DNA from: Escherichia phage alia
DNA length: 64,000 nucleotides
Direction: 5' to 3' (one strand)
Sequence record: NC_052655.1
Numbering within the stretch: the first letter of the stretch is position 1; every line of letters begins with the position of its first letter. The position numbers and the translations under genes are program-made. Of the stretch, positions 4,466 to 44,268 are shown piece after piece. The notes under the pieces are model-generated. The model was given only the letters and a program-made list of their open reading frames with translations, ran no database searches and was not told the DNA's origin.

Positions 4466-4948
4466 TTAACCACCCAATTGCAAATGTTTAGAAAGAACAA
4501 TATCCCATTGATCACCACAACCGTTATCTATGCGGAACATAATGTACGTATCATCTTCTTCTACAATATACCGTACCTCATAGGAATTACAACAGCCTTC
4601 CCAATTTTTAACGGCTTCTGGTGTATGATGTGTAAGAATTTCATTACCATCATATGACCAAAACAAAGGAGTAAGGTTTTCGAAGGTCAGTGAAGTAGGG
4701 TTTACTTCATCTTTAACTGCTTCCTCATATTCTTTATGCGTTTGTACTGCTTTAGTTAGTGTACTCATGTCTATCTCCTTTTCTCCTTCTTGACTATGGA
4801 GGATAGCAAACTCTCTAAACTCCACTTCACGCCATGTTTTCAGGTAGTGCTTTATAATTTTATCAACATCTGCCTGTTCAACATTACTTTTCAAGCAATA
4901 GTAATCATGGTCTTCGCCCATTCTACCCCATATGCTATACATTGTCAT
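4466..4948 (-). CDS. hypothetical protein
   Basis: Track ORF 160 aa; AAGGA upstream of start. Confidence 0.5.
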   Translation of the reverse strand: MTMYSIWGRMGEDHDYYCLKSNVEQADVDKIIKHYLKTWREVEFREFAILHSQEGEKEIDMSTLTKAVQTHKEYEEAVKDEVNPTSLTFENLTPLFWSYDGNEILTHHTPEAVKNWEGCCNSYEVRYIVEEDDTYIMFRIDNGCGDQWDIVLSKHLQLGG

Positions 4949-17336: not shown

Positions 17337-17358
17337 AAATCAAAGAAAGGTTATCATT

Positions 17359-17586
17359 ATGGCTATCGTTATTGTTCGCGTATCCGGTACGGTTGGGATC
17401 TCCCAGGTAGTAGCAGTTATCACCGAGAAGAAAGGAGATGATCTTCACTCCTCCTTGAATAGCTGGGCGGTCGCTAACTTTGGGCAATGGTCGAGCGTTG
17501 AGTACATCGAATCCTACCAGGTGCCAACGATTAGCCTAACCGATCTAAATGTTGATCGCTTGTTGTGCCTGGATCAATTAAACTAA
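17359..17586 (+). CDS. hypothetical early protein
   Basis: Track ORF 75 aa. Confidence 0.55.
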   Translation: MAIVIVRVSGTVGISQVVAVITEKKGDDLHSSLNSWAVANFGQWSSVEYIESYQVPTISLTDLNVDRLLCLDQLN

Positions 17587-17594
17587 AAATAATA

Positions 17595-17652
17595 TTGACA
17601 AGATAACTAAAATCAGTAAAATGTAATGCATAGGGCGGCAATAGTGCCGCTC
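17595..17652 (+). promoter_or_regulatory. sigma70-type promoter with 5-prime GC hairpin
   Basis: TTGACA-16-TAAAAT then GCGGCA-ATAG-TGCCGC. Confidence 0.5.
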
Positions 17653-17673
17653 CTAGTGAGAGAGATTATCAAG

Positions 17674-17889
17674 ATGGCTAATATCCGCACACTGTTAAAA
17701 AATGCAAGTCAAGTTTTATTTTCAGATGACGAGTATTTCAACAAAGACATTACAGGCGTGAAAAATTTAAAAGACGTGAAGGATGTTATCGGTATCCGTG
17801 GATCTTTACGTAAAGGTGACATATACGGTAACAAGGTGCAATATAAACTGTCAAAAGATTATGATTTTACTTTGACATTTATTTCATAA
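17674..17889 (+). CDS. hypothetical early protein
   Basis: Track ORF trimmed to Met17 downstream of hairpin. Confidence 0.5.
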   Translation: MANIRTLLKNASQVLFSDDEYFNKDITGVKNLKDVKDVIGIRGSLRKGDIYGNKVQYKLSKDYDFTLTFIS

Positions 17890-17895
17890 AACCGC

Positions 17896-17956
17896 TTGCA
17901 ATACTGCAAAAATAAAGTAAACTGTATTCATCAAGGCGGTGGAATAGCCCACCGCC
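17896..17956 (+). promoter_or_regulatory. sigma70-type promoter with 5-prime GC hairpin
   Basis: TTGCAA-16-TAAACT then GGCGGTGG-AATAG-CCCACCGCC. Confidence 0.45.
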
Positions 17957-17979
17957 TAACAAAGAGAAGAGGAAACATC

Positions 17980-18150
17980 ATGATCACTTTCGCTACCCGT
18001 GAAGCCGCTCGCAACGTTGCACGTAAAGTTAACGCCGCCAACCTGGGCGCTACGCTTAAAGCCCCGGTAAAAGATGAATCAGGTAAATGGATCTTCCCTG
18101 GTCTGCGTCACGCTGATAAGCTGGGAACGTTAACGCTAAAAAATAAATAA
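17980..18150 (+). CDS. hypothetical small protein (56 aa)
   Basis: Track ORF trimmed to Met29 with GAGAAGAGGAAA RBS. Confidence 0.45.
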   Translation: MITFATREAARNVARKVNAANLGATLKAPVKDESGKWIFPGLRHADKLGTLTLKNK

Positions 18151-18157
18151 AATCCGC

Positions 18158-18216
18158 TTGACAGTAGCATCATTTATAAGTAAAGTAACAACAACGGCGG
18201 GAAATGGTTTCCCGCC
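18158..18216 (+). promoter_or_regulatory. sigma70-type promoter with 5-prime GC hairpin
   Basis: TTGACA-17-TAAAGT then GGCGGGAAA-TGG-TTTCCCGCC. Confidence 0.5.
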
Positions 18217-18236
18217 ATCAATAAAGAGATAAGATC

Positions 18237-18596
18237 ATGAAATCAGTAAAAGCAATTAAAACTTACATTGTGTCGGCTATTTCTTTTGATGGTACTACAA
18301 CCGAAAAAGAAAAGATCACCGAACTGATGCGCCGTTTTAACTCTGAATACTGGTATCCCGATAATCAAAAACGTTACAATTATAACGTGATCAAGGCGAT
18401 AGCCTCATGGTTACAAGGTTTACCGTCAGAAATCAATATTGCTTTTGATTATAACGAGATCGATCACTTGTTAATTGAATGGAAGTACATAAAAGAAACA
18501 AGCAAAGAAACAACCGTTACCCGTGAGCGGGAAAATTATTGGTTATATATTGCAAGCATGATCGTAATCCTGGCAAAACAGCATAACGTGGCGTAA
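18237..18596 (+). CDS. hypothetical early protein
   Basis: Track ORF 119 aa. Confidence 0.55.
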   Translation: MKSVKAIKTYIVSAISFDGTTTEKEKITELMRRFNSEYWYPDNQKRYNYNVIKAIASWLQGLPSEINIAFDYNEIDHLLIEWKYIKETSKETTVTRERENYWLYIASMIVILAKQHNVA

Positions 18597-18611
18597 TTAA
18601 GAGGAAGAAAC

Positions 18612-18749
18612 ATGAACGCATCACAGCAGATCGAAAAATTCAACCGCAGCAAGGCGCGTAAAGATTGGAACGAAGAGATCACCAAAAAAGGCGACAAGCG
18701 GAACAAAACAAAGAGAGATCGCAGCACAAAAAGATACTGGAACGAATAA
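18612..18749 (+). CDS. hypothetical small basic protein (45 aa)
   Basis: Hand-called ORF MNASQQIEKFNRSKARKDW.. with GAGGAAGAAA RBS; terminator follows. Confidence 0.4.
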   Translation: MNASQQIEKFNRSKARKDWNEEITKKGDKRNKTKRDRSTKRYWNE

Positions 18750-18754
18750 CAAAA

Positions 18755-18779
18755 AAGGGCGCAATAAGCGCCCTTTTAG
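18755..18779 (+). terminator. rho-independent terminator
   Basis: AAGGGCGC-AATA-AGCGCCCTT then TTT. Confidence 0.6.
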
Positions 18780-18867
18780 CTTATATAGAGGCTTGTTACC
18801 CATAGGCAATGGTAACGCCAGGATAAGCCTATAAACCACGTTAGACAGCTTTACAGGAGCTTTAAAA

Positions 18868-19050
18868 ATGAAATTAGAAGAAATAAGCAAGGCACTAGCC
18901 CAGGGGCAAAGGTTAAACGCCCGTTATCGTGATCAATATGGCTTCATAACCAGCGGCGTGATCCTGGGGATTGAAGGCAATAAGATTTTTATTGACACGT
19001 TGAAAAACGTTGTATATAGTGACAATATAATCTCAATAAAACATATATGA
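18868..19050 (+). CDS. hypothetical small protein
   Basis: Track ORF 60 aa. Confidence 0.45.
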   Translation: MKLEEISKALAQGQRLNARYRDQYGFITSGVILGIEGNKIFIDTLKNVVYSDNIISIKHI

Positions 19051-19058
19051 GGCAAGAA

Positions 19059-19460
19059 ATGAAAAAATTATTGATCGCTGGTTTAATCTCTTTTGGCATG
19101 GTTGGAACATCTAGCGCGGCGATATCCTCCACAGTAGCAGAATTAAGCGCCGTTGATGCAATGGAAAACGTCATGCTTATTAATAATGCGATCCCCGATG
19201 AAATCATGGAGGATTCACACATGATCGCTTATGGTGCTGTTACACAACTAACGGCAAAAATAGATAAATCTATTGCTAATGGCTTAAATGAAGATGTACC
19301 ATGTGAAATTATTACCAGTGTGCTAACGACTCAAAATTTTACGCCGTGGTTAAAAAGTATTCAAAAGGTACACAGCACCGCCGCAGATCGTAGCAATGAA
19401 AAACTGGTGTCAGCACTTGCAACGTATACCCTAGCAAAATGCACCGAAATAAAAGATTGA
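19059..19460 (+). CDS. hypothetical secreted protein (signal peptide)
   Basis: Track ORF trimmed to Met5; MKKLLIAGLISFGMVGTSSAA signal-like N-terminus. Confidence 0.55.
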   Translation: MKKLLIAGLISFGMVGTSSAAISSTVAELSAVDAMENVMLINNAIPDEIMEDSHMIAYGAVTQLTAKIDKSIANGLNEDVPCEIITSVLTTQNFTPWLKSIQKVHSTAADRSNEKLVSALATYTLAKCTEIKD

Positions 19461-19507
19461 CAACATAGAAAGCACGTTATAAGATACACACAACAAAGGA
19501 GAACTAC

Positions 19508-19810
19508 ATGAACGGCATAGCTAAAACGTTTTTTCTTTTTTCTGGTGTAAATAATCCATCAATAAAAGTCGATAGTGTAAAAGAAAACAATACTATCACC
19601 GCTAAATTGTTTCAAGATGAAACAAATAACGTGCTAATCATTAATCTTAAAGAAATAACGAAAGGTTATTATACTATTGCTTACCATGCGATCTATCATG
19701 CGGGTACTAGTGAGGAAGTGCAAACAAGCAACAACGAAAGCGCGGCGCTACCTGGTGATCTGGTGCTGGGTGTTATCAGTTTAATTGTCAATGATTTTTT
19801 TAAGGAGTAA
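19508..19810 (+). CDS. hypothetical protein
   Basis: Track ORF 100 aa; AAAGGAGAA RBS. Confidence 0.55.
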   Translation: MNGIAKTFFLFSGVNNPSIKVDSVKENNTITAKLFQDETNNVLIINLKEITKGYYTIAYHAIYHAGTSEEVQTSNNESAALPGDLVLGVISLIVNDFFKE

Positions 19811-19814
19811 AACC

Positions 19815-19910
19815 ATGCCCTATTTACATTTATTTTTCGGGATCTTATTGTCAGGATCTTTTTTCTTCTGTATACTTGTTTCTATTGTAAACCACGTTTT
19901 AAGACATTAA
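19815..19910 (+). CDS. hypothetical membrane micro-protein (31 aa)
   Basis: TAAGGAG RBS; hydrophobic MPYLHLFFGILLSGSFFFCILVSIV. Confidence 0.3.
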   Translation: MPYLHLFFGILLSGSFFFCILVSIVNHVLRH

Positions 19911-19919
19911 GGAAACAGC

Positions 19920-20039
19920 ATGAAAATTATTCCCGTACAATATAGCGTAATAAATCCAGCATACGAGGAAGGAAGGAAAACAAGCATGGCTTTATGTTGT
20001 ATTGCTACTATAGCCATGTTGTTATGCATTGTGTTTTAA
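19920..20039 (+). CDS. hypothetical membrane micro-protein (39 aa)
   Basis: GGAAACAGC upstream; hydrophobic C-terminus MALCCIATIAMLLCIVF. Confidence 0.25.
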   Translation: MKIIPVQYSVINPAYEEGRKTSMALCCIATIAMLLCIVF

Positions 20040-20068
20040 TAGGTTTTATAGTTGTACGCTTTAAAGGC

Positions 20069-20096
20069 TTGACAATTTTTTGTTATGCTTTAAACT
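20069..20096 (+). promoter_or_regulatory. sigma70-type promoter
   Basis: TTGACA-16-TAAACT. Confidence 0.4.
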
Positions 20097-20139
20097 ATAT
20101 CTTGAAAACGGCAAAGGCCGCAAACAAAAGGGTAAAATT

Positions 20140-20463
20140 ATGAAATCTGTGATCGGTGTTTATTTGGATAACTCTGATTTTTTCTATCATCGTGCTCGTT
20201 TCCTTGATGCGATTGAAATGATAGAATCAGGCTTTAAAGAGTATCGCCTTGCACATGATGACCTGGAAGCATTACAGGGCAATAGTGTTTTTACATTGCA
20301 AGCTAAAGCACTATGCAAAAGCCGGATCGACATTGCGAGCAAAAAGATAGAACGCGGCATGTCCTGGTTACGCACCGCAGAAATCAACATGGGGCAATGG
20401 TACGGCGAAAACTTAGAAAATAAACATGCTTTTGTCAATGTAGAAAATATTGAAGATTATTGA
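20140..20463 (+). CDS. hypothetical early protein
   Basis: Track ORF trimmed to Met21. Confidence 0.5.
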   Translation: MKSVIGVYLDNSDFFYHRARFLDAIEMIESGFKEYRLAHDDLEALQGNSVFTLQAKALCKSRIDIASKKIERGMSWLRTAEINMGQWYGENLENKHAFVNVENIEDY

Positions 20464-20526
20464 TTGACAGCACACCTGATAAGGAGTATATTGTATCTCA
20501 TAGAGCGGGGAAATGGTTTCCCCGCC
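20464..20526 (+). promoter_or_regulatory. sigma70-type promoter with 5-prime GC hairpin
   Basis: TTGACA-17-TATATT then GCGGGGAAA-TGG-TTTCCCCGC. Confidence 0.5.
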
Positions 20527-20545
20527 TTAACAGAAGAGATAAGAT

Positions 20546-20830
20546 ATGAAGATCACAAAAGCACTTTCCAACTATGCAGCACGTCGCGGATTATGCTTAT
20601 CCGTTGAAAACTTAGGGAAAGAAGATTTTTTGTGCTTTTGGGAGCTTGAGAATGATAATGAGTGGATCTTCTCTTATTCTATCTGCGAAGATCAAAACGG
20701 TTGTTTATTAACCTGGCGCGGTAATATCTATCTACCGGAAGAAATCAAAGAAGAATTGCCAGGCACGATCATGACTGAGAAACAGCTTAAGGAAGTGATT
20801 AATTTTGTAGGGCAAAACATTAAAAAATAA
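20546..20830 (+). CDS. hypothetical early protein
   Basis: Track ORF 94 aa. Confidence 0.55.
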   Translation: MKITKALSNYAARRGLCLSVENLGKEDFLCFWELENDNEWIFSYSICEDQNGCLLTWRGNIYLPEEIKEELPGTIMTEKQLKEVINFVGQNIKK

Positions 20831-20831
20831 T

Positions 20832-20891
20832 TTGACACTAGGCAAACAACGTAGTAAAGTTTATCACATAGGGCGGGAAATGGTTTCCCGC
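20832..20891 (+). promoter_or_regulatory. sigma70-type promoter with 5-prime GC hairpin
   Basis: TTGACA-17-TAAAGT then GGGCGGGAAA-TGG-TTTCCCGC. Confidence 0.5.
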
Positions 20892-20914
20892 TCACAACAG
20901 AAGAGAAACACATC

Positions 20915-21085
20915 ATGATCCCGACTATGTTTTACGTATCGCGCAAAGGTCACAATATTTTTTGGTCTGAAGATTTAAATGAAGCCATGACGTTTGCCCG
21001 TGATCGTGTTGCTATCGGTGGCGTTAACATTACCGTAACCGATGAAAACGGCATTGAATACTATAACGGCGACGATGAAGAGTAA
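20915..21085 (+). CDS. hypothetical small protein (56 aa)
   Basis: Hand-called ORF MIPTMFYVSRKGHNIFW.. behind promoter-hairpin unit. Confidence 0.4.
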   Translation: MIPTMFYVSRKGHNIFWSEDLNEAMTFARDRVAIGGVNITVTDENGIEYYNGDDEE

Positions 21086-21092
21086 TTAATAA

Positions 21093-21113
21093 GGCGGGGG
21101 AGTATTCCCCGCC
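21093..21113 (+). promoter_or_regulatory. 5-prime GC hairpin without clear -35/-10
   Basis: GGCGGGG-GAGTATT-CCCCGCC 20 nt upstream of the 21133 start. Confidence 0.35.
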
Positions 21114-21132
21114 GTCAATAAAGAGGTAAATC

Positions 21133-21402
21133 ATGAAAATATCTTTGGACGTTGCAATCAAGGCCATCGAATCCGGTTACACCCTGGTAAAAGATGATAA
21201 GGCTAAAACCGTGCACCACGTTAACAAGGAAACAGGCGAAAGCATGATCACATATAAAGCCGCCTACTTTCTCCAATCAGTAGCAGATCCGCGCGTACAA
21301 CGCCAGGTTACAGCGGCTATTGCTAAAAAATTATGTGCTTTACAGGGCACAAGTTTTAACGAGATCGCCCCGTGTTTTGACTGGTCGAGCTTGAAAAAAT
21401 AG
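21133..21402 (+). CDS. hypothetical early protein
   Basis: Track ORF 89 aa; AAAGAGG RBS. Confidence 0.55.
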   Translation: MKISLDVAIKAIESGYTLVKDDKAKTVHHVNKETGESMITYKAAYFLQSVADPRVQRQVTAAIAKKLCALQGTSFNEIAPCFDWSSLKK

Positions 21403-21403
21403 T

Positions 21404-21461
21404 TTGACAACAATTATAAATCGGGTAGAATGTATTTCGTAGGGCGGCAATAGTGCCGCTC
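21404..21461 (+). promoter_or_regulatory. sigma70-type promoter with 5-prime GC hairpin
   Basis: TTGACA-16-TAGAAT then GCGGCA-ATAG-TGCCGC. Confidence 0.5.
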
Positions 21462-21482
21462 ACAACTAAAAGAGAAATCAGC

Positions 21483-21677
21483 ATGGCGCTTAAAAAACTA
21501 ACAAGCAATACTCGTTGGGATGAAATCGACGGAGAAGTTTACATTTTCGCCCGTAAACCAGGTGATCAAAAATGGTCAAAGGCTTTTACTTGCCACCCTG
21601 CAACAATAGATCTAATAAAAAGTAAAGGTTTACGTGAAGCAGTAGCGAGAAGTTTACTGATCCCTTATAAAAAATAG
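21483..21677 (+). CDS. hypothetical early protein
   Basis: Track ORF trimmed to Met11. Confidence 0.5.
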   Translation: MALKKLTSNTRWDEIDGEVYIFARKPGDQKWSKAFTCHPATIDLIKSKGLREAVARSLLIPYKK

Positions 21678-21678
21678 T

Positions 21679-21740
21679 TTGACAATATGCTGTTATCTGG
21701 TAAAGTGTACGACATAGGGCGGGGCAATAAGGCAACGCCC
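21679..21740 (+). promoter_or_regulatory. sigma70-type promoter with 5-prime GC hairpin
   Basis: TTGACA-16-TAAAGT then GGGCG..CGCCC stem. Confidence 0.45.
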
Positions 21741-21758
21741 ATTAATGAGGGTAGAATC

Positions 21759-21863
21759 ATGTTAGAGAAAATTTTCACGGTTGTAATAGTGGGCCTGGCG
21801 TTATCGGTTGGATTGGTTGCAACTATGGCTAACATGATCCTATCTTCCCACGGTATTGGATAA
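21759..21863 (+). CDS. hypothetical membrane micro-protein (34 aa)
   Basis: Hydrophobic MLEKIFTVVIVGLALSVGLVATMANMIL; GAGGGTAGAA upstream. Confidence 0.3.
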   Translation: MLEKIFTVVIVGLALSVGLVATMANMILSSHGIG

Positions 21864-21873
21864 GGTGAATCAA

Positions 21874-22089
21874 ATGATCACGAATAAGACAGGTAAAACA
21901 GAATTTTTACGCGGCTTGCAAATAGGTAAACCTGAGATCTGGCATTGCACTAAATCCGCGCATAATGAAATGAAAGATTTTACCGCTACTTTACAACGTG
22001 TTAAAATATCTATCACACAGAAAAAAGCCTTGTTAGTAGTAGAAAACGAGATCCCGCAAACCATTATTATTGTCGAGCGTACAGCATGA
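21874..22089 (+). CDS. hypothetical protein
   Basis: Track ORF trimmed to first ATG with AAGGTG RBS. Confidence 0.5.
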   Translation: MITNKTGKTEFLRGLQIGKPEIWHCTKSAHNEMKDFTATLQRVKISITQKKALLVVENEIPQTIIIVERTA

Positions 22090-22472
22090 AAACTGAAATC
22101 ATTAACGAAATGATCAACGGCTATAAAGAAGCCTTTATTTTTGCCGAACCAGCGACGGATCACAATGGGGAATATATTGAGAATCTAGACGATTATGATT
22201 TTTCTCCTAGCGCCCTGAAACGTATTACCAGCGATGTGACCGCCTTTTGTAGTGCCAATGTTGCCGCTATCTCTGAGGCAATGAGCGACGGCGCAACAGC
22301 AAACCAGATCGGGAATGACTTACATTTCACCCGTAACGGTCACGGCGTAGGCTTTTGGGATCGCCCTGAAATATACACTACTAACACCGCCAACCGCCTA
22401 ACAAATGCAGCTAAATTAATGCCATCGGTGCATGCTTACATTGGTGAAGATAATTTGATTTATATTGAATAA
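22086..22472 (+). CDS. hypothetical protein
   Basis: Track ORF 128 aa; ATGA overlap with upstream gene. Confidence 0.55.
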   Translation: MKTEIINEMINGYKEAFIFAEPATDHNGEYIENLDDYDFSPSALKRITSDVTAFCSANVAAISEAMSDGATANQIGNDLHFTRNGHGVGFWDRPEIYTTNTANRLTNAAKLMPSVHAYIGEDNLIYIE

Positions 22473-22478
22473 AAAGTA

Positions 22479-22537
22479 TTGACACCGATCCCCAATATGG
22501 TATTATTTACCACGTAGGCGGGAAATGGTTTCCCGCC
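22479..22537 (+). promoter_or_regulatory. sigma70-type promoter with 5-prime GC hairpin
   Basis: TTGACA-16-TATTAT then GGCGGGAAA-TGG-TTTCCCGCC. Confidence 0.5.
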
Positions 22538-22560
22538 AGGTAATCAAAAAGGTAAATACT

Positions 22561-22950
22561 ATGCGCAACCTGGTTTCTGTTTCTAACGTTGAAAAATTCC
22601 AATCTTTACAGGGTATCGTTAACAACGTAGCGCCTTTTTTAGTAAACGGCTTGATTGCAAAGATGAAAAATAAACATCATGCGGCATGGTCTGCTTATTG
22701 CTTTGATAATGATGAAAAAGCGGCTGAAATGATGTTAGATATGCTGTTAGATAGTGTAGAAACATCTTTACCGGAAAACATCGCAGAAGAGATCACCTAT
22801 CGTTATAATATGGCGATCACTTACCAGGAGGTTGCGCAATTCAACATGATGGATGATGACGAACAACAGGATCAAGAAATGTTTTGGGAGTATGCAGATC
22901 GTCAATCGGCTTTTGATGAAAAGTTAGCGATGTATTATAACGAATATTAA
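22561..22950 (+). CDS. hypothetical early protein
   Basis: Track ORF trimmed to Met13; terminator follows. Confidence 0.5.
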   Translation: MRNLVSVSNVEKFQSLQGIVNNVAPFLVNGLIAKMKNKHHAAWSAYCFDNDEKAAEMMLDMLLDSVETSLPENIAEEITYRYNMAITYQEVAQFNMMDDDEQQDQEMFWEYADRQSAFDEKLAMYYNEY

Positions 22951-22963
22951 TACACGGTAAAAG

Positions 22964-22990
22964 AAAGGGGCGCACTAAGCGCCCTTTTTT
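22964..22990 (+). terminator. rho-independent terminator
   Basis: AAAGGGGCGC-ACTA-AGCGCCCTT then TTTTTT. Confidence 0.65.
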
Positions 22991-23088
22991 GTATTCTTTT
23001 TTCACGATGGAAACAACACGTAAAGAATAGGCGTAAAGGTGGCGTAAAACAGTCTAAAACCGATTATAACCGCTTAAACAAGGTAACA

Positions 23089-23241
23089 ATGACTAATCAC
23101 CTTGCCAGGATGAAAAAGCTGTTAGAAAGCTGTTTAGAGCGTTTAAAGCACATAGGAAATAACTTGCTTTTTATCTTGCCTTTTATCCTGCTTTTGATTA
23201 TTATTATGGAACGGGCGGCACCTGGGGACAGGGGAAGATAA
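23089..23241 (+). CDS. hypothetical small membrane protein (50 aa)
   Basis: Hand-called ORF MTNHLARMKKLLESCLERLKHIGNNLLFILPFILLLIIIM..; AAGGT RBS. Confidence 0.3.
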   Translation: MTNHLARMKKLLESCLERLKHIGNNLLFILPFILLLIIIMERAAPGDRGR

Positions 23242-23335
23242 TCACCGGAAGATCTTATCATATATTGATAGCTTCCCCCTATCAAACAACAAAACATTAA
23301 AGAGATAAACTATCAAATCTTTACAATCCTACCTA

Positions 23336-23364
23336 TTGACCGATAAATCACAACAGTTTAATAT
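23336..23364 (+). promoter_or_regulatory. sigma70-type promoter
   Basis: TTGACC-17-TAATAT. Confidence 0.4.
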
Positions 23365-23412
23365 TGTTTTTAGAGGTTAGAATATTCCCCAAACGAAAAC
23401 AGGAAAAAGAAA

Positions 23413-23649
23413 ATGAAAGAAGTCATGATCCTCAAAAAATCACCTATTTTACGTGGCGGTTTTATCGCTTACTCTGATGATCTGTTAATTGCAACAGTTG
23501 CAAAAATACTAAAATCAGAAGAGGATAGTAAAAACGGCGTTTATCGTATCTGTTTCACCCGTGGAAAATTACAAGGCAAGATCGCCTATGCCTTTGATTT
23601 ACAAGATGTAAATGATAAAATCTGCGCTGTTATTGATTATGCAAAATAA
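23413..23649 (+). CDS. hypothetical early protein
   Basis: Track ORF 78 aa; AGGAAAAAGAAA RBS. Confidence 0.55.
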   Translation: MKEVMILKKSPILRGGFIAYSDDLLIATVAKILKSEEDSKNGVYRICFTRGKLQGKIAYAFDLQDVNDKICAVIDYAK

Positions 23650-23661
23650 TTAACTTTCTTA

Positions 23662-23690
23662 TTGACACCGGATCACGCTTACATTATTAT
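23662..23690 (+). promoter_or_regulatory. sigma70-type promoter
   Basis: TTGACA-17-TATTAT. Confidence 0.45.
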
Positions 23691-36534: not shown

Positions 36535-36540
36535 CACATA

Positions 36541-36565
36541 AACCCGCTTCGGCGGGTTTTCTTGT
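36541..36565 (+). terminator. rho-independent terminator
   Basis: AACCCGC-TTCG-GCGGGTT then TTCTTG. Confidence 0.6.
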
Positions 36566-36841: not shown

Positions 36842-36920
36842 ATGACTTTACTAGAGAGTATTGTAGTGTTAATCATCTTTATCATTATTGTCATAGGATA
36901 TTTTACAGAAGACTAAAATA

Positions 36921-36954
36921 AAGCCCCTAGAAGCGATTCTAGGGGCTTTTGTTT
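36921..36954. terminator. bidirectional rho-independent terminator at convergence point
   Basis: AAAGCCCCTAGAAGCGATTCTAGGGGCTTTT; T-run on both strands. Confidence 0.6.
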
Positions 36955-37016
36955 GCATTAGGTAGGGAAACGTATTACTAGAATAAAAAGTGCGTTAGAA
37001 TGCGTTACAGGAGGTT

Positions 37017-37274
37017 TTAAGAATGCATAAAATCTTCTTCAGGGCAGGTTGAGAGATAAGAGATGCACGTTGGGACAACAACAACATTATCTTTAAGGTT
37101 TTCAACCAAGCCTTTTGTAATCCCAGCCACTGCCCCGTTAATATCTGCTTGACGGATACCAAAGCCTTGTTGTGCGGATAGATAACAAAATCCCTCACCT
37201 TTCTGTTGATTGTTATTGAAGTAATAAACGTAGTGCATCATAAAATGGTCTTTAACGATTTGCTCTGTGGTCAT
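37017..37274 (-). CDS. hypothetical protein
   Basis: Track ORF 85 aa. Confidence 0.45.
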   Translation of the reverse strand: MTTEQIVKDHFMMHYVYYFNNNQQKGEGFCYLSAQQGFGIRQADINGAVAGITKGLVENLKDNVVVVPTCISYLSTCPEEDFMHS

Positions 37275-37287
37275 AATATTCTCCTAT

Positions 37288-37313
37288 AAGAAAAGGGGCT
37301 TTCGCCCCCTTGG
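37288..37313 (-). terminator. rho-independent terminator (leftward)
   Basis: GGGGGCGAAAGCCCC then TTTTCTT on minus strand. Confidence 0.55.
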
Positions 37314-37318
37314 TTAAG

Positions 37319-38131
37319 TTATTTAGTCAAATGATCTTCTATCATTTTTATGAAAGCAGGATTGCTAAAAGCATCTGCGGCTTTTTCTCGATAAACAAAG
37401 ACTCCTCTATCTTCGTAAAGAAGAGTTTCTTCGTAATTAATTCCTGGGTTAACAACAATCATTTTTGTACCCATATTAAGTGCAGGGAATAATTCCCAAT
37501 TAAAATTAATAACTTGGTTTGAACATCCTACTACAACAACCAAATCTTGCATGGTCAAAGTATCAAACAAGTGAGCCATATCTGCATACAAAGGTGCAGC
37601 CTCACCAAAAAATACAACATTAGGCTTCACCCAGTTATAATCATCTATGTTTATATTGTTGTAACCGATATCTACCAGTGTCTTGTAATCTCCAGGATGC
37701 ATACGATAAACTACTTCAGGAAGATATCCGTGCACGTGAATAACAGAATTTCTGTCTACACCTGCTCGCTCTAGTAGATCATCAACGTTTGTTGTCAAGT
37801 TTACTATTTGGTTAGGATATTCCTTAAACCACTTTGCTATTTGAATATGTGCAGCATTAGGTTGTACATCTTTAAGCTCAACACGTCTTTTGTTATAAAA
37901 TTCGTGTGTTTTGGCATACAAATCCATACCGTTTTCGTCTACACCACCAACCACTGGAAGATCTGGAGATGTTCTCACACGATAACCTGCTTGGAAAGCT
38001 CCAATATCGCAGATCTCTTCTAAATCATATTCTTCCCATAAAGCACGACCACTATCTGTGTCTGTTCGGAATGTTCGAATCCCACTGTCTGCACTTAAAC
38101 CTGCGCCACTGACAAAAATTACTCTTCGCAT
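37319..38131 (-). CDS. Sir2-like (sirtuin fold) NAD-binding protein without zinc ribbon
   Basis: GAGLSADSGIRTFR, TTNVDDL, HG and VVFFGE motifs; no CxxC pairs. Confidence 0.65.
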   Translation of the reverse strand: MRRVIFVSGAGLSADSGIRTFRTDTDSGRALWEEYDLEEICDIGAFQAGYRVRTSPDLPVVGGVDENGMDLYAKTHEFYNKRRVELKDVQPNAAHIQIAKWFKEYPNQIVNLTTNVDDLLERAGVDRNSVIHVHGYLPEVVYRMHPGDYKTLVDIGYNNINIDDYNWVKPNVVFFGEAAPLYADMAHLFDTLTMQDLVVVVGCSNQVINFNWELFPALNMGTKMIVVNPGINYEETLLYEDRGVFVYREKAADAFSNPAFIKMIEDHLTK

Positions 38132-38673
38132 TCAATATCCTCTTCGTAATCATCATACCAAGAAGATGCGTCGTAACGCTCTTCCTCTTCGAAATCCCAA
38201 TTAATTTCTACTCCAAAATCTAAAAACAATTTAACAATGTTTTCTGTAGAGTAGTATTTATCATAAGCATTAGCTAGTTCCCAATACTTATCACTCAATT
38301 TTTTATAATTAGGATCATTGTAATCATGAGCTACTTTATCACCATAATCATACATCTCTTCTTCAGCTTTAAGCATAGCTTCTGGTGTAAGAAGATTAGG
38401 GAACGGACGATTTCTTTCTTTTAACTTAGAAGCAATCCAGTTTGCAACATTCGCCACTTCACCATCTCGATTATCACCTAAACAACTTGCATAATCTCCA
38501 TCTTCGTAAGTGCCTAAATCCCCACTGACTTCATGTACAATAGATGAATACGATCCACACGTTTCACAATCTGAAAAAGTGTCTACTGTTGTAATATCAA
38601 TAGATAAAACTGGTAAAGCCATAGCTTCTTTCACACAAGCCTCCTCATATAATAACATATCATCAAAACCCAT
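38119..38673 (-). CDS. hypothetical highly acidic protein
   Basis: Track ORF trimmed to Met6 with GGAGGA RBS; Asp/Glu/Tyr rich; overlaps Sir2 start. Confidence 0.5.
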   Translation of the reverse strand: MGFDDMLLYEEACVKEAMALPVLSIDITTVDTFSDCETCGSYSSIVHEVSGDLGTYEDGDYASCLGDNRDGEVANVANWIASKLKERNRPFPNLLTPEAMLKAEEEMYDYGDKVAHDYNDPNYKKLSDKYWELANAYDKYYSTENIVKLFLDFGVEINWDFEEEERYDASSWYDDYEEDIECEE

Positions 38674-38689
38674 ATATCCTCCAGACAAA

Positions 38690-38715
38690 TAAAGCCCCTG
38701 GTTGGGGCTTTGGTT
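38690..38715 (-). terminator. rho-independent terminator (leftward)
   Basis: AGCCCCAACCAGGGGCT then TTATTTG on minus strand. Confidence 0.5.
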
Positions 38716-38727
38716 AAGTTTTATGGA

Positions 38728-39339
38728 TTATACCAGACTTTTAAGGTACTTGTCAAGGGCTTCTTGATCACCTTGACAAACATAGCAACGGAAGTCTTGA
38801 GCAGAAGGTTCTTTATCCTCTTCCCAATCCCAATAGACAGTACCTTTATAGCGTGAGCCTGGGAACTCGAAGTATGCTACATGGGTAATATGGTGTGGGC
38901 CACCCCAAAACTCTGTAAAAGTAAATTGAGGATACGCTGCTTTAACTGTATTTTCAAACCAAGTTTTACGATCTAATGCTTCGTTTATAAAATAAGCATG
39001 GCGTTCCATTTCATCCCAATCTTTCCAAACGCATTTTTCATCCAGAGAAAAAACAAAATTCTCACTGTTAAAATCGTCTGTATCTGATTCCAAAATATCA
39101 TAATCATGTGCGCTAGGTATCCACCATCCAGCTTCTAATAGGGCTTTCGCAGGTACAAAACCTTTTTCAGCGTATTGATCAAATTCTTTTACTCTACGTA
39201 CAGTGCAGTATTCATCTTCACCACCAATATCCAGTATACAAGCGCCTTTGCGTCTTGCTGCAAGACCATGTGTATCAAAAACTACAACACTACCTTCACC
39301 ATCTTCACGATCTACTTGATATGCAACTTTTTGAGTCAT
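38728..39339 (-). CDS. hypothetical protein
   Basis: Track ORF 203 aa. Confidence 0.5.
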   Translation of the reverse strand: MTQKVAYQVDREDGEGSVVVFDTHGLAARRKGACILDIGGEDEYCTVRRVKEFDQYAEKGFVPAKALLEAGWWIPSAHDYDILESDTDDFNSENFVFSLDEKCVWKDWDEMERHAYFINEALDRKTWFENTVKAAYPQFTFTEFWGGPHHITHVAYFEFPGSRYKGTVYWDWEEDKEPSAQDFRCYVCQGDQEALDKYLKSLV

Positions 39340-39462
39340 ATTACCCCCAATGTATATGGGAAATTAACCAAAAGATAAATTCCCAAAAACACCAACCAAG
39401 AAAAGTTAATGGAATTATAAAAGCTATCAGAGCAGTCTTCCAGCCTTTCCACAATGTTTCCA

Positions 39463-40920: not shown

Positions 40921-40948
40921 CAAAAAACCCGCCGAAGCGGGTTTATAT
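40921..40948 (-). terminator. rho-independent terminator (leftward)
   Basis: AACCCGCTTCGGCGGGTT then TTTTTG on minus strand. Confidence 0.6.
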
Positions 40949-43695: not shown

Positions 43696-44268
43696 TTAAT
43701 GTGTTAATGAAACTGCGTAACTAAACACAGGTTCAGATATTACATCGGCTACAGTAATAAAAACGTCCTCATCTTGCGTTGTTTCTACACGACATACAGT
43801 TACACCATTTACTACAAATTCAACGCAATGTGGAATATCTTCACAAACGAATGTAGTGTAAGTAACACCCAAAGCATCATACAAAGATTTAACAGTATTT
43901 GCAAGTGCCGCAGTTTCTTCTTTTTCTGAGACAATGAATGCTGTAACAACAAGATTGTTTGCATAGTTTAGACTGTCCTCTATAGCCAATGATTTACAAG
44001 GTAGTAATGCAAAATATTTACCTGGTTTAATCAGACCTGCTTCCCATTGATTCAAAATTGCCTGGGATGGTTTAGTAATATAAAACAGATTTTCACTTGG
44101 GTTATCAATATTACTTCTGGCGATACAACGTGAAGGATTATTAATATCAAACACATGATCAAAATCTACACAAACTGGTAAACTGAAAGGTGTAAATTTT
44201 TTACCTAATAATCCTACTGCTGACAATATGTTTGCTGTGCTTATCTTCCCGTTAAAAGCTAAACGCAT
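43696..44268 (-). CDS. hypothetical protein
   Basis: Track ORF 190 aa. Confidence 0.5.
   Translation of the reverse strand: MRLAFNGKISTANILSAVGLLGKKFTPFSLPVCVDFDHVFDINNPSRCIARSNIDNPSENLFYITKPSQAILNQWEAGLIKPGKYFALLPCKSLAIEDSLNYANNLVVTAFIVSEKEETAALANTVKSLYDALGVTYTTFVCEDIPHCVEFVVNGVTVCRVETTQDEDVFITVADVISEPVFSYAVSLTH

What the first reader, a model, noticed from the sequence alone, without database searches (positions are those of the whole stretch)
37319..38673. Sir2-like protein translationally coupled to a highly acidic protein
37319-38131 has the sirtuin NAD-binding signature (GAGLSADSGIRTFR) but no zinc-ribbon cysteines, like the SIR2 domains used as NADases in bacterial defence systems. 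Its start overlaps the end of a 184-aa protein that is extremely rich in Asp, Glu and Tyr, a composition seen in DNA-mimic anti-restriction proteins. The pair has its own terminators on both sides (38690-38715 and 37288-37313), so it looks like a discrete two-gene module.
Basis: partly seen in the sequence, partly recalled or inferred. Interest (0 to 1): 0.55.

Follow-up and report, generated by a model that had tools for sequence, protein, structure and literature searches.

The report
Phage sirtuin with acidic upstream gene
This is the already-annotated, zinc-less CobB-like sirtuin gene of a phi92-like E. coli phage, sharing a short transcription unit with an uncharacterised very acidic phage protein that it does not need; it looks like neither a defence-type NAD-destroying enzyme nor a known DNA mimic.

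Summary
A 270-aa SIR2-family protein (37319-38131, minus strand) overlaps by 13 nt the end of a 184-aa protein that is the most acidic long ORF in the window (pI 4.05, net charge -32), and hairpins flank the pair.

The window is a phi92-like Escherichia phage (97-99% identical to W22, phi92 and EmilieFrey). The sirtuin is phi92 gp038, annotated as Sir2 in most of about 970 matching phage records.

It belongs to a phage-specific clade with no zinc cysteines that has been discussed in print. Its nearest relatives by sequence and fold are the deacylases CobB, Sir2-Af1 and SIRT5. No defence NADase appears among the best fold matches or PADLOC hits. All catalytic residues and the class III Tyr/Arg pair are invariant.

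The acidic protein is a narrow phage-only family with three invariant cysteines, no recognisable fold and conserved extreme acidity. It sits next to Sir2 only in phi92-like phages, lies about 36 kb away in jumbo phages, and is deleted in KP13-26.

New here: a perfect, conserved sigma-70 promoter plus a 5' hairpin drives the pair, and the "conserved" acidic tail is dual coding with the Sir2 ribosome-binding site and start codon.

phi92-like phages are reported as highly restriction-sensitive, which argues against an effective DNA-mimic role. Biochemical function remains untested.

The parts
38727..38756 (-). Perfect sigma-70 promoter (TTGACA, 18-nt spacer, TG-extended TATAAT). It is embedded in the last codons and stop codon of the upstream gene gp041.
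   Evidence: It scores 12/12 with TG. It is one of only three 12/12 sites on both strands of the 64-kb window, against about 0.13 expected from base composition, my own estimate. Both hexamers and the TGG are invariant in seven loci whose flanks differ.
38691..38711 (-). GC-rich hairpin (AAAGCCCC-loop-GGGGCTTT) followed by TTTATTTGT. It lies in the 5' leader between the promoter and the acidic gene. It is probably a leaky terminator for upstream transcripts, a 5' stabilising stem-loop, or both.
   Evidence: The stem is kept in L005, L007, KKP 3954 and KP13-26 although the stem and loop sequences differ.
38119..38673 (-). Acidic 184-aa protein (phi92 gp039, phrog_9509). It has an N-terminal helix, a beta-hairpin with the invariant CExCG...GDxAxC motif, a helical domain and a disordered poly-acidic tail (residues 165-184).
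38119..38131 (-). 13-nt overlap (ATGCGAAGAGTAA) between the end of the acidic gene and the Sir2 start. The Sir2 Shine-Dalgarno sequence GAGGA lies in the acidic tail codons.
   Evidence: The overlap is 16 nt in L005, L006 and L007. In PD06 (L003) and L004 a stop codon (TAA) replaces the window's GAA, ending the tail 11 nt before the ATG; EmilieFrey's annotated coordinates show the same shorter gene and 11-nt gap.
37319..38131 (-). Zinc-less CobB-like (class III-like) sirtuin, 270 aa (phi92 gp038, phrog_2162).
37293..37311 (-). Hairpin (AAGGGGGC-GAAA-GCCCCTT) followed by TTCTTAT, directly after the Sir2 stop codon. Probably a partial terminator.
37017..37274 (-). gp037 homologue (85 aa, phrog_15991, unknown function). 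It may be a third cistron read through the weak hairpin, because no promoter was found upstream of it.
   Evidence: It is syntenic in L003-L007 and KKP 3954.
36920..36949 (.). Strong bidirectional terminator (13-bp stem) where the leftward unit meets the rightward early gene cluster.
38728..39339 (-). gp041 homologue (203 aa, phrog_8514, unknown function). This upstream gene carries the promoter in its 3' end and is syntenic across the phi92-like group.

Best explanation
The locus is a short, conserved transcription unit of a phi92-like (Stephanstirmvirinae) Escherichia phage that host RNA polymerase can probably read. Its order is: consensus sigma-70 promoter, 5' hairpin, acidic protein gene, overlapping Sir2 gene, weak terminator, possibly gp037, then a strong terminator.

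**Sir2 (inferred).** It belongs to a phage-specific sirtuin clade that has lost the four zinc cysteines but keeps the beta-module, the NAD pocket and the catalytic Asn, Asp and His. It also keeps the Tyr/Arg pair that marks CobB/SIRT5-type (class III) sirtuins. I infer that it is a catalytically active NAD+-consuming transferase, not a triggered NAD+-depleting toxin. The most likely activity is lysine deacylation of host or phage proteins, releasing nicotinamide and O-acyl-ADP-ribose. The main alternative for the same active site is Tpt1-like chemistry on an RNA 2'-phosphate.

**Acidic protein (inferred).** It is a separate, fast-evolving accessory protein inserted between the promoter and Sir2 in this lineage. 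It has a three-cysteine knuckle that probably binds metal, a helical body and a disordered acidic tail. Sir2 does not require it. Its conserved net charge of about -30 suggests that it binds a basic, possibly nucleic-acid-binding, host or phage protein. Its last residues look conserved mainly because they also encode the Sir2 ribosome-binding site and start codon.

**Shown versus inferred.** Shown: anatomy, homology, conservation and phyletic distribution. Inferred: enzymatic activity, substrates, expression timing and the role of the acidic protein.
For: **Identity of the phage.** The region is 97-99% identical to phi92, W22 and EmilieFrey, where the gene is annotated as Sir2.

**Sirtuin family and class.**
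- Pfam SIR2 at 1.6e-22 and phrog_2162 at 2.5e-104.
- The best solved relatives are E. coli CobB at 1e-18, then Sir2-Af and SIRT5.
- The AF2 model has pLDDT 90.4. Its Foldseek top 50 are all deacylase sirtuins, with CobB TM-scores of 0.82-0.85 normalised to the target.
- There is no PADLOC defence hit.

**Conserved residues.** These are invariant in 48 clade members: G9, A10, G11, S13, S16, G17, F21, R22, Y79, R82, R83, N115, D117, H134, F174, F175, E177, N228. P229 is kept in 47 of 48. Y79 and R82 align with the FYNARRR segment of CobB. That these CobB residues correspond to SIRT5 Tyr102/Arg105 is established knowledge, not tested here.

**Zinc module.** It is predicted as a three-stranded sheet with block-mean pLDDT of 94-96 despite lacking cysteines.

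**Promoter, hairpin and overlap.** All three are conserved in diverged relatives.

**Independence of the acidic gene.**
- 973 phage records carry Sir2 and 147 carry the acidic family.
- The genes are about 36 kb apart in pEa_SNUABM_19, XbC2 and Kaldavass.
- KP13-26 keeps only a 16-codon remnant of the acidic gene.
- rV5-, Mydo- and T5-like phages have no acidic upstream gene.

**Properties of the acidic family.**
- HMMER over 1.84 billion representative proteins lists 11 matches, about eight of them plausible relatives.
- C36, E37, C39, G40, G59, A62 and C64 are invariant.
- Full-length members have net charge -25 to -34; the Eneladusvirus jumbo-phage homologue, only about 27% identical, is -32.
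- dN is about twice that of Sir2.
Against: - No biochemical data exist for any member of this sirtuin clade in the searched literature.
- The protein scores far below the curated CobB equivalog cut-offs: 86.7 against 320 bits and 107 against 243 bits. It is therefore not a CobB orthologue, and its substrate could differ.
- In rV5-like and Mydovirus phages the orthologous gene sits among RNA ligase, polynucleotide kinase, phosphoesterase and DNA ligase genes. On that basis Iyer et al. (PMC9503650) propose a KptA-like RNA-repair role rather than protein deacylation.
- Early expression is inferred only from a promoter consensus. A hairpin with a T-run directly after the promoter could terminate much of that transcription.
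- The acidic model rests on a 4-sequence alignment (pLDDT 81). Metal binding is inferred only from three conserved cysteines and two weak zinc-ribbon-like hits (E=0.06).
Confidence: 0.6

Rival explanations
1. RNA-repair sirtuin. The enzyme uses NAD+ the way KptA/Tpt1 does, transferring an RNA 2'-phosphate onto ADP-ribose. It would work with the phage's RNA ligase, polynucleotide kinase and phosphoesterase to restore tRNAs or mRNAs cut by host anticodon nucleases. The acidic protein would be unrelated.
For: - The role was proposed for this clade by Iyer et al. 2022 (PMC9503650).
- I confirmed the neighbourhoods. In MaxTheCat the order is RNA ligase, a 116-aa protein (possibly the cREC protein of Iyer et al.; the record annotates it as hypothetical), then Sir2, with polynucleotide kinase and a phosphoesterase alongside.
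- In KB57 the order is phosphoesterase, RNA ligase, ATPase, Sir2, DNA ligase, MazG-like.
- EmilieFrey, 97% identical to the window in this region, encodes an RNA ligase, polynucleotide kinase and phosphoesterase cluster.
- The conserved catalytic His and the invariant Tyr/Arg/Arg could in principle serve phosphate chemistry (inference).
Against: - In this phage lineage Sir2 is about 30 kb from the RNA ligase and has its own promoter.
- Phyletic coupling is weak. Sir2 is in 973 records including 289 Salmonella phages. The Rnl1-type ligase is in 656 records including only 15 Salmonella phages, and in 175 Pseudomonas phages, a genus absent from the ten most frequent names among Sir2 records.
- The clade is uniformly acidic (pI 4.6-5.8, net charge -6 to -19), which is unusual for an RNA-binding enzyme.
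- All the nearest sequence and fold relatives are protein deacylases.
Confidence: 0.25
2. Sir2 is a defence-type NADase acting as a toxin or exclusion effector, and the acidic protein is a DNA-mimic anti-restriction protein or an inhibitor of the NADase. Together they form a discrete two-gene conflict module.
For: - The protein has no zinc cysteines.
- The partner is extremely acidic and its charge is conserved.
- The genes overlap.
- The unit has its own promoter and flanking hairpins.
- The acidic protein evolves fast.
Against: - There is no similarity to defence SIR2 proteins in PADLOC, Pfam or fold space.
- No sensor domain is fused to or encoded beside Sir2.
- Relatives carry an adjacent prs-like and Nampt-like gene pair, the same domain pair as the NAD+-rebuilding NARP1 operon. 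A phage-encoded NAD+ destroyer would work against that.
- phi92-like phages Bas60-62 are described as exceptionally susceptible to restriction-modification systems (PMC8594841).
- Sir2 persists without the acidic gene in KP13-26 and in hundreds of other phage records.
Confidence: 0.08
3. Enzyme plus dedicated cofactor. In phi92-like phages the acidic cysteine-knuckle protein binds the zinc-less Sir2 as a regulator, targeting subunit or substrate. Translational coupling would set their stoichiometry.
For: - The overlap, or at most an 11-nt gap, is kept across relatives as diverged as 33-54% acidic-protein identity.
- Every phage group found with the acidic family also encodes this Sir2 clade: phi92-like and Phapecoctavirus, Eneladusvirus, and XbC2/Kaldavass.
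- The partner has a conserved three-cysteine knuckle, whereas Sir2 lacks its zinc site.
Against: - Adjacency is confined to one syntenic lineage in which the flanking genes are conserved too.
- The genes are about 36 kb apart in jumbo phages.
- The acidic gene is deleted in KP13-26 while Sir2 stays intact.
- The Sir2 zinc module is confidently predicted to fold on its own.
- Co-occurrence in very large genomes is weak evidence.
Confidence: 0.12

Closest known systems
E. coli CobB and class III sirtuins (SIRT5, Sir2-Af1): NAD+-dependent lysine deacylases
   Same: - It shares the Rossmann NAD-binding motif GAGxSxxSGIxxFR, the TxNxD motif, the catalytic HG, FGE, the GxS motif and the Tyr/Arg pair in FYNxRR.
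- CobB is the best sequence match at E=1e-18.
- CobB is also the best fold match, with TM-scores up to 0.85 normalised to the target.
   Different: - It has no zinc cysteines.
- Identity is only about 25-27%.
- It scores far below the NCBIfam CobB equivalog cut-offs.
- Part of the clade carries a variable insertion of about 20 residues at positions 50-72.
- It is phage-encoded, and its substrates are unknown.
Phage sirtuin clade of rV5, Mydovirus, T5-like, KVP40 and jumbo phages. Described by Skliros et al. 2016 (PMC5107563) as zinc-less viral Sir2/CobB and by Iyer et al. 2022 (PMC9503650) as a putative RNA-repair sirtuin.
   Same: - It is a direct homologue, 38-75% identical over the full length.
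- It shares the same invariant residues and the same lack of zinc ligands.
   Different: - In this lineage the gene is not beside RNA-repair genes.
- It lies behind its own sigma-70 promoter and a lineage-specific acidic gene.
Defence-associated SIR2 NADases (ThsA, DSR1/DSR2, SIR2-HerA, SIR2-pAgo)
   Same: It belongs to the sirtuin superfamily and binds NAD+.
   Different: - It has no match to PADLOC defence models.
- None of these proteins is among the top 50 fold matches.
- It has no fused or adjacent sensor or partner such as SLOG, HerA or pAgo.
- It is encoded by a lytic phage.
DNA-mimic anti-restriction proteins (T7 Ocr, ArdA)
   Same: The acidic protein is small, strongly acidic (pI 4.05, net charge -32), phage-encoded and placed behind an early-type promoter.
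   Different: - No fold similarity was detected.
- It has a conserved three-cysteine knuckle.
- The host phages are reported as restriction-sensitive.

Membership tests
Sirtuin / SIR2 family (Pfam PF02146) | Score above the curated Pfam gathering threshold | tested here: met
   80.7 bits against a cut-off of 24, E=1.6e-22.
Sirtuin / SIR2 family (Pfam PF02146) | NAD-binding loop GAGxSxxSGIxxFR, Asn/Asp of the TxNxD motif and the catalytic His (HG) | tested here: met
   GAGLSADSGIRTFR, TTNVDD and HVHG are present. G9, A10, G11, S13, S16, G17, F21, R22, N115, D117 and H134 are invariant in 48 homologues.
Sirtuin / SIR2 family (Pfam PF02146) | Structural zinc site formed by four cysteines (two CxxC pairs) in the small domain | tested here: not met
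   No CxxC occurs in residues 135-172 in any of 48 clade members. The beta-module is still predicted with block-mean pLDDT of 94-96. This loss is typical of the phage clade (PMC5107563).
Sirtuin / SIR2 family (Pfam PF02146) | NAD+-dependent deacylase or ADP-ribosyltransferase activity | not testable with these tools
   This needs enzyme assays. No published assay for this clade was found.
CobB orthologues (NCBIfam NF040867, NF001753 and related models) | Score above the curated equivalog or subfamily cut-off | tested here: not met
   86.7 against 320 bits and 107 against 243 bits.
Class III sirtuins (CobB/SIRT5 type) | Tyr-x-x-Arg pair that binds acidic acyl groups | tested here: met
   FYNKRR aligns with FYNARRR of CobB. 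Y79 and R82 are invariant in the clade. The functional meaning comes from established knowledge of SIRT5 and CobB and was not tested here.
Defence SIR2 NADases (Thoeris ThsA, DSR1/DSR2, SIR2-HerA, SPARSA) | Homology to defence SIR2 models | tested here: not met
   PADLOC gives only a 12.6-bit hit to PDC-S65 at E=0.015. The only Pfam hit is canonical SIR2. No defence SIR2 appears in the Foldseek top 50.
Defence SIR2 NADases (Thoeris ThsA, DSR1/DSR2, SIR2-HerA, SPARSA) | Fused or adjacent sensor or partner (SLOG, TIR, HerA, pAgo, large C-terminal sensor) | tested here: not met
   It is a single-domain 270-aa protein. The neighbouring genes have no such domains.
Macrodomain-linked sirtuins (SirTM-type ADP-ribosyltransferase pairs) | Adjacent macrodomain gene | tested here: not met
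   No macrodomain gene lies next to Sir2. In EmilieFrey a putative macrodomain gene lies about 46 kb away.
Phage 'RNA-repair' sirtuin clade (Iyer et al. 2022) | Sequence membership in the phage sirtuin clade | tested here: met
   It is 47-60% identical over the full length to the rV5-like, Mydovirus and T5-like proteins, and 34-39% identical over 84-99% of its length to the KVP40 and jumbo-phage proteins. It falls in phrog_2162.
Phage 'RNA-repair' sirtuin clade (Iyer et al. 2022) | Conserved neighbourhood with RNA ligase, kinase, cREC, 2H, HAD or phosphoesterase genes | tested here: not met
   Here the neighbours are gp041, the acidic protein, gp037 and a Dcm-like methylase. The RNA ligase cluster is about 30 kb away in EmilieFrey. 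The neighbourhood is present in MaxTheCat and KB57.
DNA-mimic anti-restriction proteins (Ocr, ArdA) | Strongly negative surface charge | tested here: met
   Net charge -32 and pI 4.05, conserved across the family. Only composition was assessed; surface electrostatics were not computed.
DNA-mimic anti-restriction proteins (Ocr, ArdA) | Fold or sequence similarity to a known DNA mimic | tested here: not met
DNA-mimic anti-restriction proteins (Ocr, ArdA) | Protects the phage from restriction | not testable with these tools
   Indirect published evidence points the other way: phi92-like BASEL phages are 'exceptionally susceptible' to restriction-modification systems (PMC8594841).
Obligate two-gene module (toxin-antitoxin or enzyme-inhibitor type) | Strict co-occurrence and adjacency of the two genes | tested here: not met
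   973 records carry Sir2 and 147 carry the acidic family. The genes are about 36 kb apart in jumbo phages. The acidic gene is deleted in KP13-26.

The most novel reading that the evidence does not exclude
The zinc-less phage sirtuin clade, present in about a thousand phage records, may not be a housekeeping deacylase. It may instead carry out a phage-specific NAD+-dependent reaction early in infection. Candidates are Tpt1-like removal of RNA 2'-phosphates, or ADP-ribosylation or deacylation of a particular host defence or takeover target. In that reading the acidic cysteine-knuckle protein co-transcribed with it in phi92-like phages is a new kind of early inhibitor that mimics nucleic acid or sequesters a basic host protein. 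The NAD+ consumed would be recovered by the phage's own macrodomain and NAD+-reconstitution genes.
Probability: 0.2. Interest if true: 0.65.

Novelty: already known. Interest (0 to 1): 0.32.

Why it matters
**Open question.** Phage sirtuins are widespread in large lytic phages of enterobacteria and vibrios, yet no biochemical study of them turned up in the papers searched. It is puzzling that phage groups for which NAD+-rebuilding pathways are described (KVP40; T5-like Bas30, a relative of the T5-like Sir2 carriers) or suggested by annotation (EmilieFrey) also carry an NAD+-consuming enzyme. Settling whether this enzyme edits the host acyl-proteome, repairs RNA or does something else would close a real gap in phage NAD+ biology.

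**What this locus offers.** It provides a compact native unit of promoter, leader, acidic gene and Sir2, and a natural deletion of the acidic gene (KP13-26) as a genetic starting point.

**How new it is.** The gene is already annotated and has been discussed in the literature, and the link to the acidic protein is lineage-specific. The finding as stated is therefore mostly ordinary.

Tried and rejected
1. **Defence-type SIR2.** Rejected on PADLOC, Pfam and Foldseek results.
3. **afdb50 fold search.** The library was not available.
4. **A second aaRS-labelled neighbour.** The window's counterpart of phi92 gp051 (43696-44268), labelled 'histidyl tRNA synthetase' in phi92, is another aaRS-labelled gene nearby. 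It shows no evident resemblance to the acidic protein by eye, and no alignment was run. It has no Pfam hit.
5. **A universal acidic partner upstream of Sir2 in other phage groups.** Not found.
6. **A riboswitch or known RNA in the leader or flanks.** Nothing reached an Rfam gathering score.
7. **dN/dS.** Synonymous sites are saturated, so only dN values are informative.
8. **Published experimental work on phage sirtuins, phi92 Sir2 or the acidic protein.** None found.
Full report
**What the window is.** The region 36900-39400 is 97-99% identical over its full length to Escherichia phages W22, phi92, PHB05, EmilieFrey (Bas61) and many others of the genus Justusliebigvirus, subfamily Stephanstirmvirinae. 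The two genes of the finding correspond to phi92 gp038, annotated 'Sir2 (NAD-dependent deacetylase)', and gp039, annotated as hypothetical. Both lie on the minus strand near the end of a long leftward gene cluster. In EmilieFrey that cluster runs through thymidylate synthase, ribonucleotide reductase, dTDP-sugar genes, PhoH, the endolysin, methylases, a recombinase, a phosphatase, a DprA-like gene and a Dcm-like methylase. It converges on a rightward block of small early-type genes. In the window I confirmed the Dcm-like methylase (PF00145, 3.4e-43), a calcineurin-like phosphoesterase and a serine recombinase.

**Checking the observation.** Every factual element holds.
- The 270-aa ORF at 37319-38131 begins MRRVIFVSGAGLSADSGIRTFR and hits Pfam SIR2 at E=1.6e-22.
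- It has two cysteines and no CxxC.
- The 184-aa ORF at 38119-38673 starts at an ATG seven bases after GGAGGA. It is 25% Asp+Glu and 8.2% Tyr, with pI 4.05 and net charge -32. It is the most acidic of the 75 ORFs of at least 100 aa in the window.
- The Sir2 ATG lies 13 nt inside the acidic ORF.
- Hairpins followed by T-rich runs lie at 38711-38691 and 37311-37293 on the coding strand.

**The sirtuin.**
- *Nearest relatives.* The closest solved relatives by sequence are E. coli CobB (1s5p, E=1e-18), then archaeal Sir2-Af1/Af2, Thermotoga Sir2, and SIRT5, SIRT3 and SIRT2. An AlphaFold model built on 48 homologues is confident (pLDDT 90.4, pTM 0.87). Its 50 best Foldseek matches in the PDB are all deacylase sirtuins, led by CobB with TM-scores of 0.82-0.85 normalised to the target. 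No defence SIR2 appears there. PADLOC returns no defence-sirtuin model, and the only Pfam hit is canonical SIR2.
- *Not a CobB orthologue.* NCBIfam CobB models score far below their cut-offs, for example 86.7 against 320 bits.
- *Distribution.* Homologues number over a thousand clusters at 90% identity. The named ones are almost all phage proteins (two carry bacterial labels) and many come from contigs of phage-genome size. 973 phage records carry the gene: phi92-like and Phapecoctavirus, T5-like Markadamsvirinae, rV5-like Vequintavirinae, Mydovirus, PVP-SE1-like, KVP40-like vibriophages and jumbo phages of about 350 kb.
- *Conservation.* Across 48 representatives the NAD loop, N115, D117, the catalytic H134, FFxE, the GxS motif and the VVNP asparagine are invariant. 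So are Y79, R82 and R83. Y79 and R82 align with the FYNARRR segment of CobB. From established knowledge of SIRT5 (Tyr102/Arg105) and CobB, this pair recognises acidic acyl groups and marks class III sirtuins.
- *Zinc module.* No clade member has a CxxC in the region where the zinc ribbon would lie, yet that region is predicted as a three-stranded sheet at block-mean pLDDT of 94-96.
- *Prior reports.* The loss of zinc ligands in viral Sir2/CobB was reported for KVP40-like phages by Skliros et al. 2016 (PMC5107563). Iyer et al. [quoted passage not shown]
- *Experimental work.* I found no experimental study of any member.

**The acidic protein.**
- *A rare family.* The word-indexed search found three clusters. 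A full HMMER scan of 1.84 billion representative proteins listed 11 matches, about eight of them plausible relatives. tblastn finds the family in 147 phage records: Justusliebigvirus, Phapecoctavirus, other Stephanstirmvirinae, Eneladusvirus-type jumbo phages (Serratia BF, Erwinia pEa_SNUABM), XbC2/Kaldavass, and weakly RaK2-like phages.
- *Conserved features.* C36, E37, C39, G40, G59, A62 and C64 are invariant, giving the motif CExCG...GDxAxC. Extreme acidity is conserved: net charge -25 to -34 in full-length members and -32 in the Eneladusvirus jumbo-phage homologue, about 27% identical.
- *Predicted structure.* The AlphaFold model, built on only four sequences, is fairly confident (pLDDT 81, pTM 0.74). 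It shows an N-terminal helix, a long beta-hairpin with the two cysteines at its tip, four helices, a further strand and a disordered tail at residues 165-184.
- *A rejected label.* 'Putative aminoacyl-tRNA synthetase' in EmilieFrey may derive from a sub-threshold PhetRS_B1 hit (E=0.034). I reject it.

**Are the two genes a module?** Within the phi92-like and Phapecoctavirus group, the order gp041, acidic gene, Sir2, gp037 is kept. It holds even where the acidic proteins are only 33-54% identical while Sir2 is 68-70% identical. Three things argue against an obligate pair.
1. The whole neighbourhood is syntenic in that lineage, so the adjacency says little on its own.
2. In jumbo phages that have both genes they lie about 36 kb apart: pEa_SNUABM_19 at 57.4 and 94.0 kb, XbC2 at 58.6 and 96.2 kb, Kaldavass at 323 and 287 kb.
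3. Klebsiella phage KP13-26, whose Sir2 is 75% identical, keeps gp041, the promoter, the hairpin and Sir2. Of the acidic gene only a 16-codon remnant survives (MNYQDMINYQTQCVLNS*, recognisably the N-terminus), followed by a fresh Shine-Dalgarno sequence and the Sir2 ATG.

T5-like, rV5-like and Mydovirus phages have no acidic gene upstream of Sir2.

**The overlap, and why the tail looks conserved.**
- In the window the overlap is 13 nt.
- In L005, L006 and L007 it is 16 nt...GAGGAGGAAGAATGCCAAGACGACTGA. The acidic-tail codons Glu-Glu-Glu-Glu-Cys-Gln-Asp-Asp spell the Sir2 Shine-Dalgarno sequence, the ATG (inside GAA TGC) and the first Sir2 codons. The conserved 'EECQDD' end, including its cysteine, is therefore explained by dual coding.
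- In PD06 (L003) and L004 a stop codon (TAA) replaces the window's GAA, removing the last eight residues and leaving an 11-nt gap; EmilieFrey's annotated coordinates show the same shorter gene and gap. These residues are dispensable for the acidic protein.
- Close coupling, by overlap or a very short gap, is kept in every locus where the junction was examined and both genes are adjacent.

**Transcription.**
- *The promoter.* A perfect sigma-70 promoter, TTGACA-18 nt-TATAAT with an extended -10 TG, lies at 38756-38727 on the coding strand, inside the last codons and stop codon of gp041. It is one of three 12/12 sites in the whole window. From base composition I estimate about 0.13 expected by chance. 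The other near-consensus sites cluster in the rightward early region at 16-24 kb.
- *Conservation.* Both hexamers and the TGG are invariant in seven loci whose surrounding sequence varies, including at synonymous sites of gp041.
- *The hairpin.* It follows about 15 nt after the -10 element, so the pair's own transcript would begin with it. Its stem is maintained with different sequences in diverged relatives. I read it as a leaky terminator for the upstream gp044-to-gp041 unit, which starts at the terminator-promoter pair at 40944-40892. It may also act as a 5' stabilising structure.
- *Downstream.* No promoter precedes gp037, and the strong bidirectional terminator is at 36920-36949. gp037 is therefore probably a third, attenuated cistron.
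- *Caveat.* Expression timing is inferred from consensus only. No known RNA family matches the leader.

**What the sirtuin most likely does.** The evidence supports a catalytically competent NAD+-dependent transferase of the CobB/SIRT5 type, so protein lysine deacylation is the default reading.

The published alternative is a Tpt1/KptA-like reaction on an RNA 2'-phosphate. It is chemically plausible for a sirtuin active site and is supported by real gene neighbourhoods in rV5-like and Mydovirus phages. Three results weaken it as a general explanation.
1. The gene is uncoupled from the RNA ligase, kinase and phosphoesterase cluster in this lineage. That cluster lies about 30 kb away in EmilieFrey.
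2. Phyletic coupling is weak. The Rnl1-type ligase occurs in 656 records, only 15 of them Salmonella phages, against 289 Salmonella phages with Sir2. It is also common in Pseudomonas phages, a genus absent from the ten most frequent names among Sir2 records.
3. The clade is uniformly acidic, with pI 4.6-5.8.

A defence-like NADase role is unlikely for the reasons given above. In addition, relatives carry an adjacent prs-like and Nampt-like pair. That is the domain pair of the NAD+-reconstituting NARP1 operon described in Bas63, though I did not verify homology. They also carry a macrodomain and a YbiA/NADAR-like gene. This toolkit could recycle a sirtuin's products, which is an inference.

**What the acidic protein most likely does.** Only weak statements are justified. 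Conserved charge, a conserved three-cysteine knuckle, dN about twice that of Sir2, patchy distribution and an early-type promoter all fit an accessory protein acting at the host interface, binding a basic partner. Against an Ocr-like anti-restriction role, no DNA-mimic fold was found. Maffei et al. [quoted passage not shown]

**Verdict.** It is not supported as to defence-NADase resemblance, and the DNA-mimic idea has no support beyond composition.

The sirtuin is an already annotated member of a described phage clade whose function is still unknown. The acidic partner is an uncharacterised, lineage-restricted accessory gene.

The useful additions are:
- the conserved consensus promoter and leader hairpin;
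- the dual-coding explanation of the acidic tail;
- the natural KP13-26 deletion, which shows Sir2 is independent of the acidic gene;
- the phyletic argument against a strict link between Sir2 and the RNA ligase.

Interest is modest at 0.32. If the phage sirtuin turns out to have a non-canonical, infection-specific role, interest would be considerably higher.

Noticed in passing
L020 (Klebsiella phage KP13-26, OP617743.1) 2378-2497: This is a natural deletion of the acidic gene. The gp041 3' end, promoter and hairpin are kept. A 16-codon remnant ORF (MNYQDMINYQTQCVLNS*) resembling the acidic protein's N-terminus follows, then GGAGGG and the Sir2 ATG.
   Followed up: partly
window 36540-36559 and 40925-40944: The same 20-nt hairpin (AAACCCGCTTCGGCGGGTTT and its complement) occurs at two intergenic sites about 4.4 kb apart. 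It scores as a terminator on both strands. At 40944-40925 it abuts a 10/12 promoter (TTGACA-17-TAAACT) that probably starts the gp044, Dcm, gp042, gp041 unit.
   Followed up: no
window 16148-23662, + strand: Nine of the fourteen promoter matches scoring 11/12 or better in the window cluster here, upstream of small ORFs. Two of them are perfect 12/12 sites, at 16148 and 16860. This is probably the host-polymerase-dependent early region.
   Followed up: no
one search hits H7-H10 (MG065639, MG065645, MG065656, MG065689): Records named 'Campylobacter phage' with host Campylobacter jejuni are 98% identical over this locus to phi92-like E. coli phages. They are probably mislabelled or contaminant assemblies.
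   Followed up: no
L016 6875-9090, L016 27084-27635 and L017 13445-16143 (EmilieFrey, outside the window except the YbiA-like gene, which maps near window 10.6 kb): The phi92-like genome carries an NAD/ADP-ribose toolkit apart from Sir2. It includes a putative macrodomain protein, a phosphoribosyltransferase, a HAD-like protein, a YbiA/NADAR-like N-glycosidase, and an adjacent prs-like plus Nampt-like pair with the domain architecture of NARP1. All of this comes from annotation only.
   Followed up: no
L003, L004 junction near 4520-4545; L002 (EmilieFrey) 21232-21244 by annotation: In these relatives a stop codon (TAA) sits where the window has GAA, so the acidic protein is eight residues shorter and an 11-nt gap precedes the Sir2 ATG instead of the 13-nt overlap.
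   Followed up: yes
window 43696-44268 (-) and 38119-38673 (-): Two unrelated-looking small proteins carry aminoacyl-tRNA-synthetase labels in public records ('histidyl tRNA synthetase' and 'putative aminoacyl-tRNA synthetase'). Neither has a significant Pfam match here, so the labels look unreliable.
   Followed up: partly
window 38728-39339 (-), gp041 homologue: This conserved 203-aa acidic protein (phrog_8514, no Pfam or PADLOC hit) is always found immediately upstream. Its C-terminal codons double as the promoter of the next unit. Its function is unknown.
   Followed up: no
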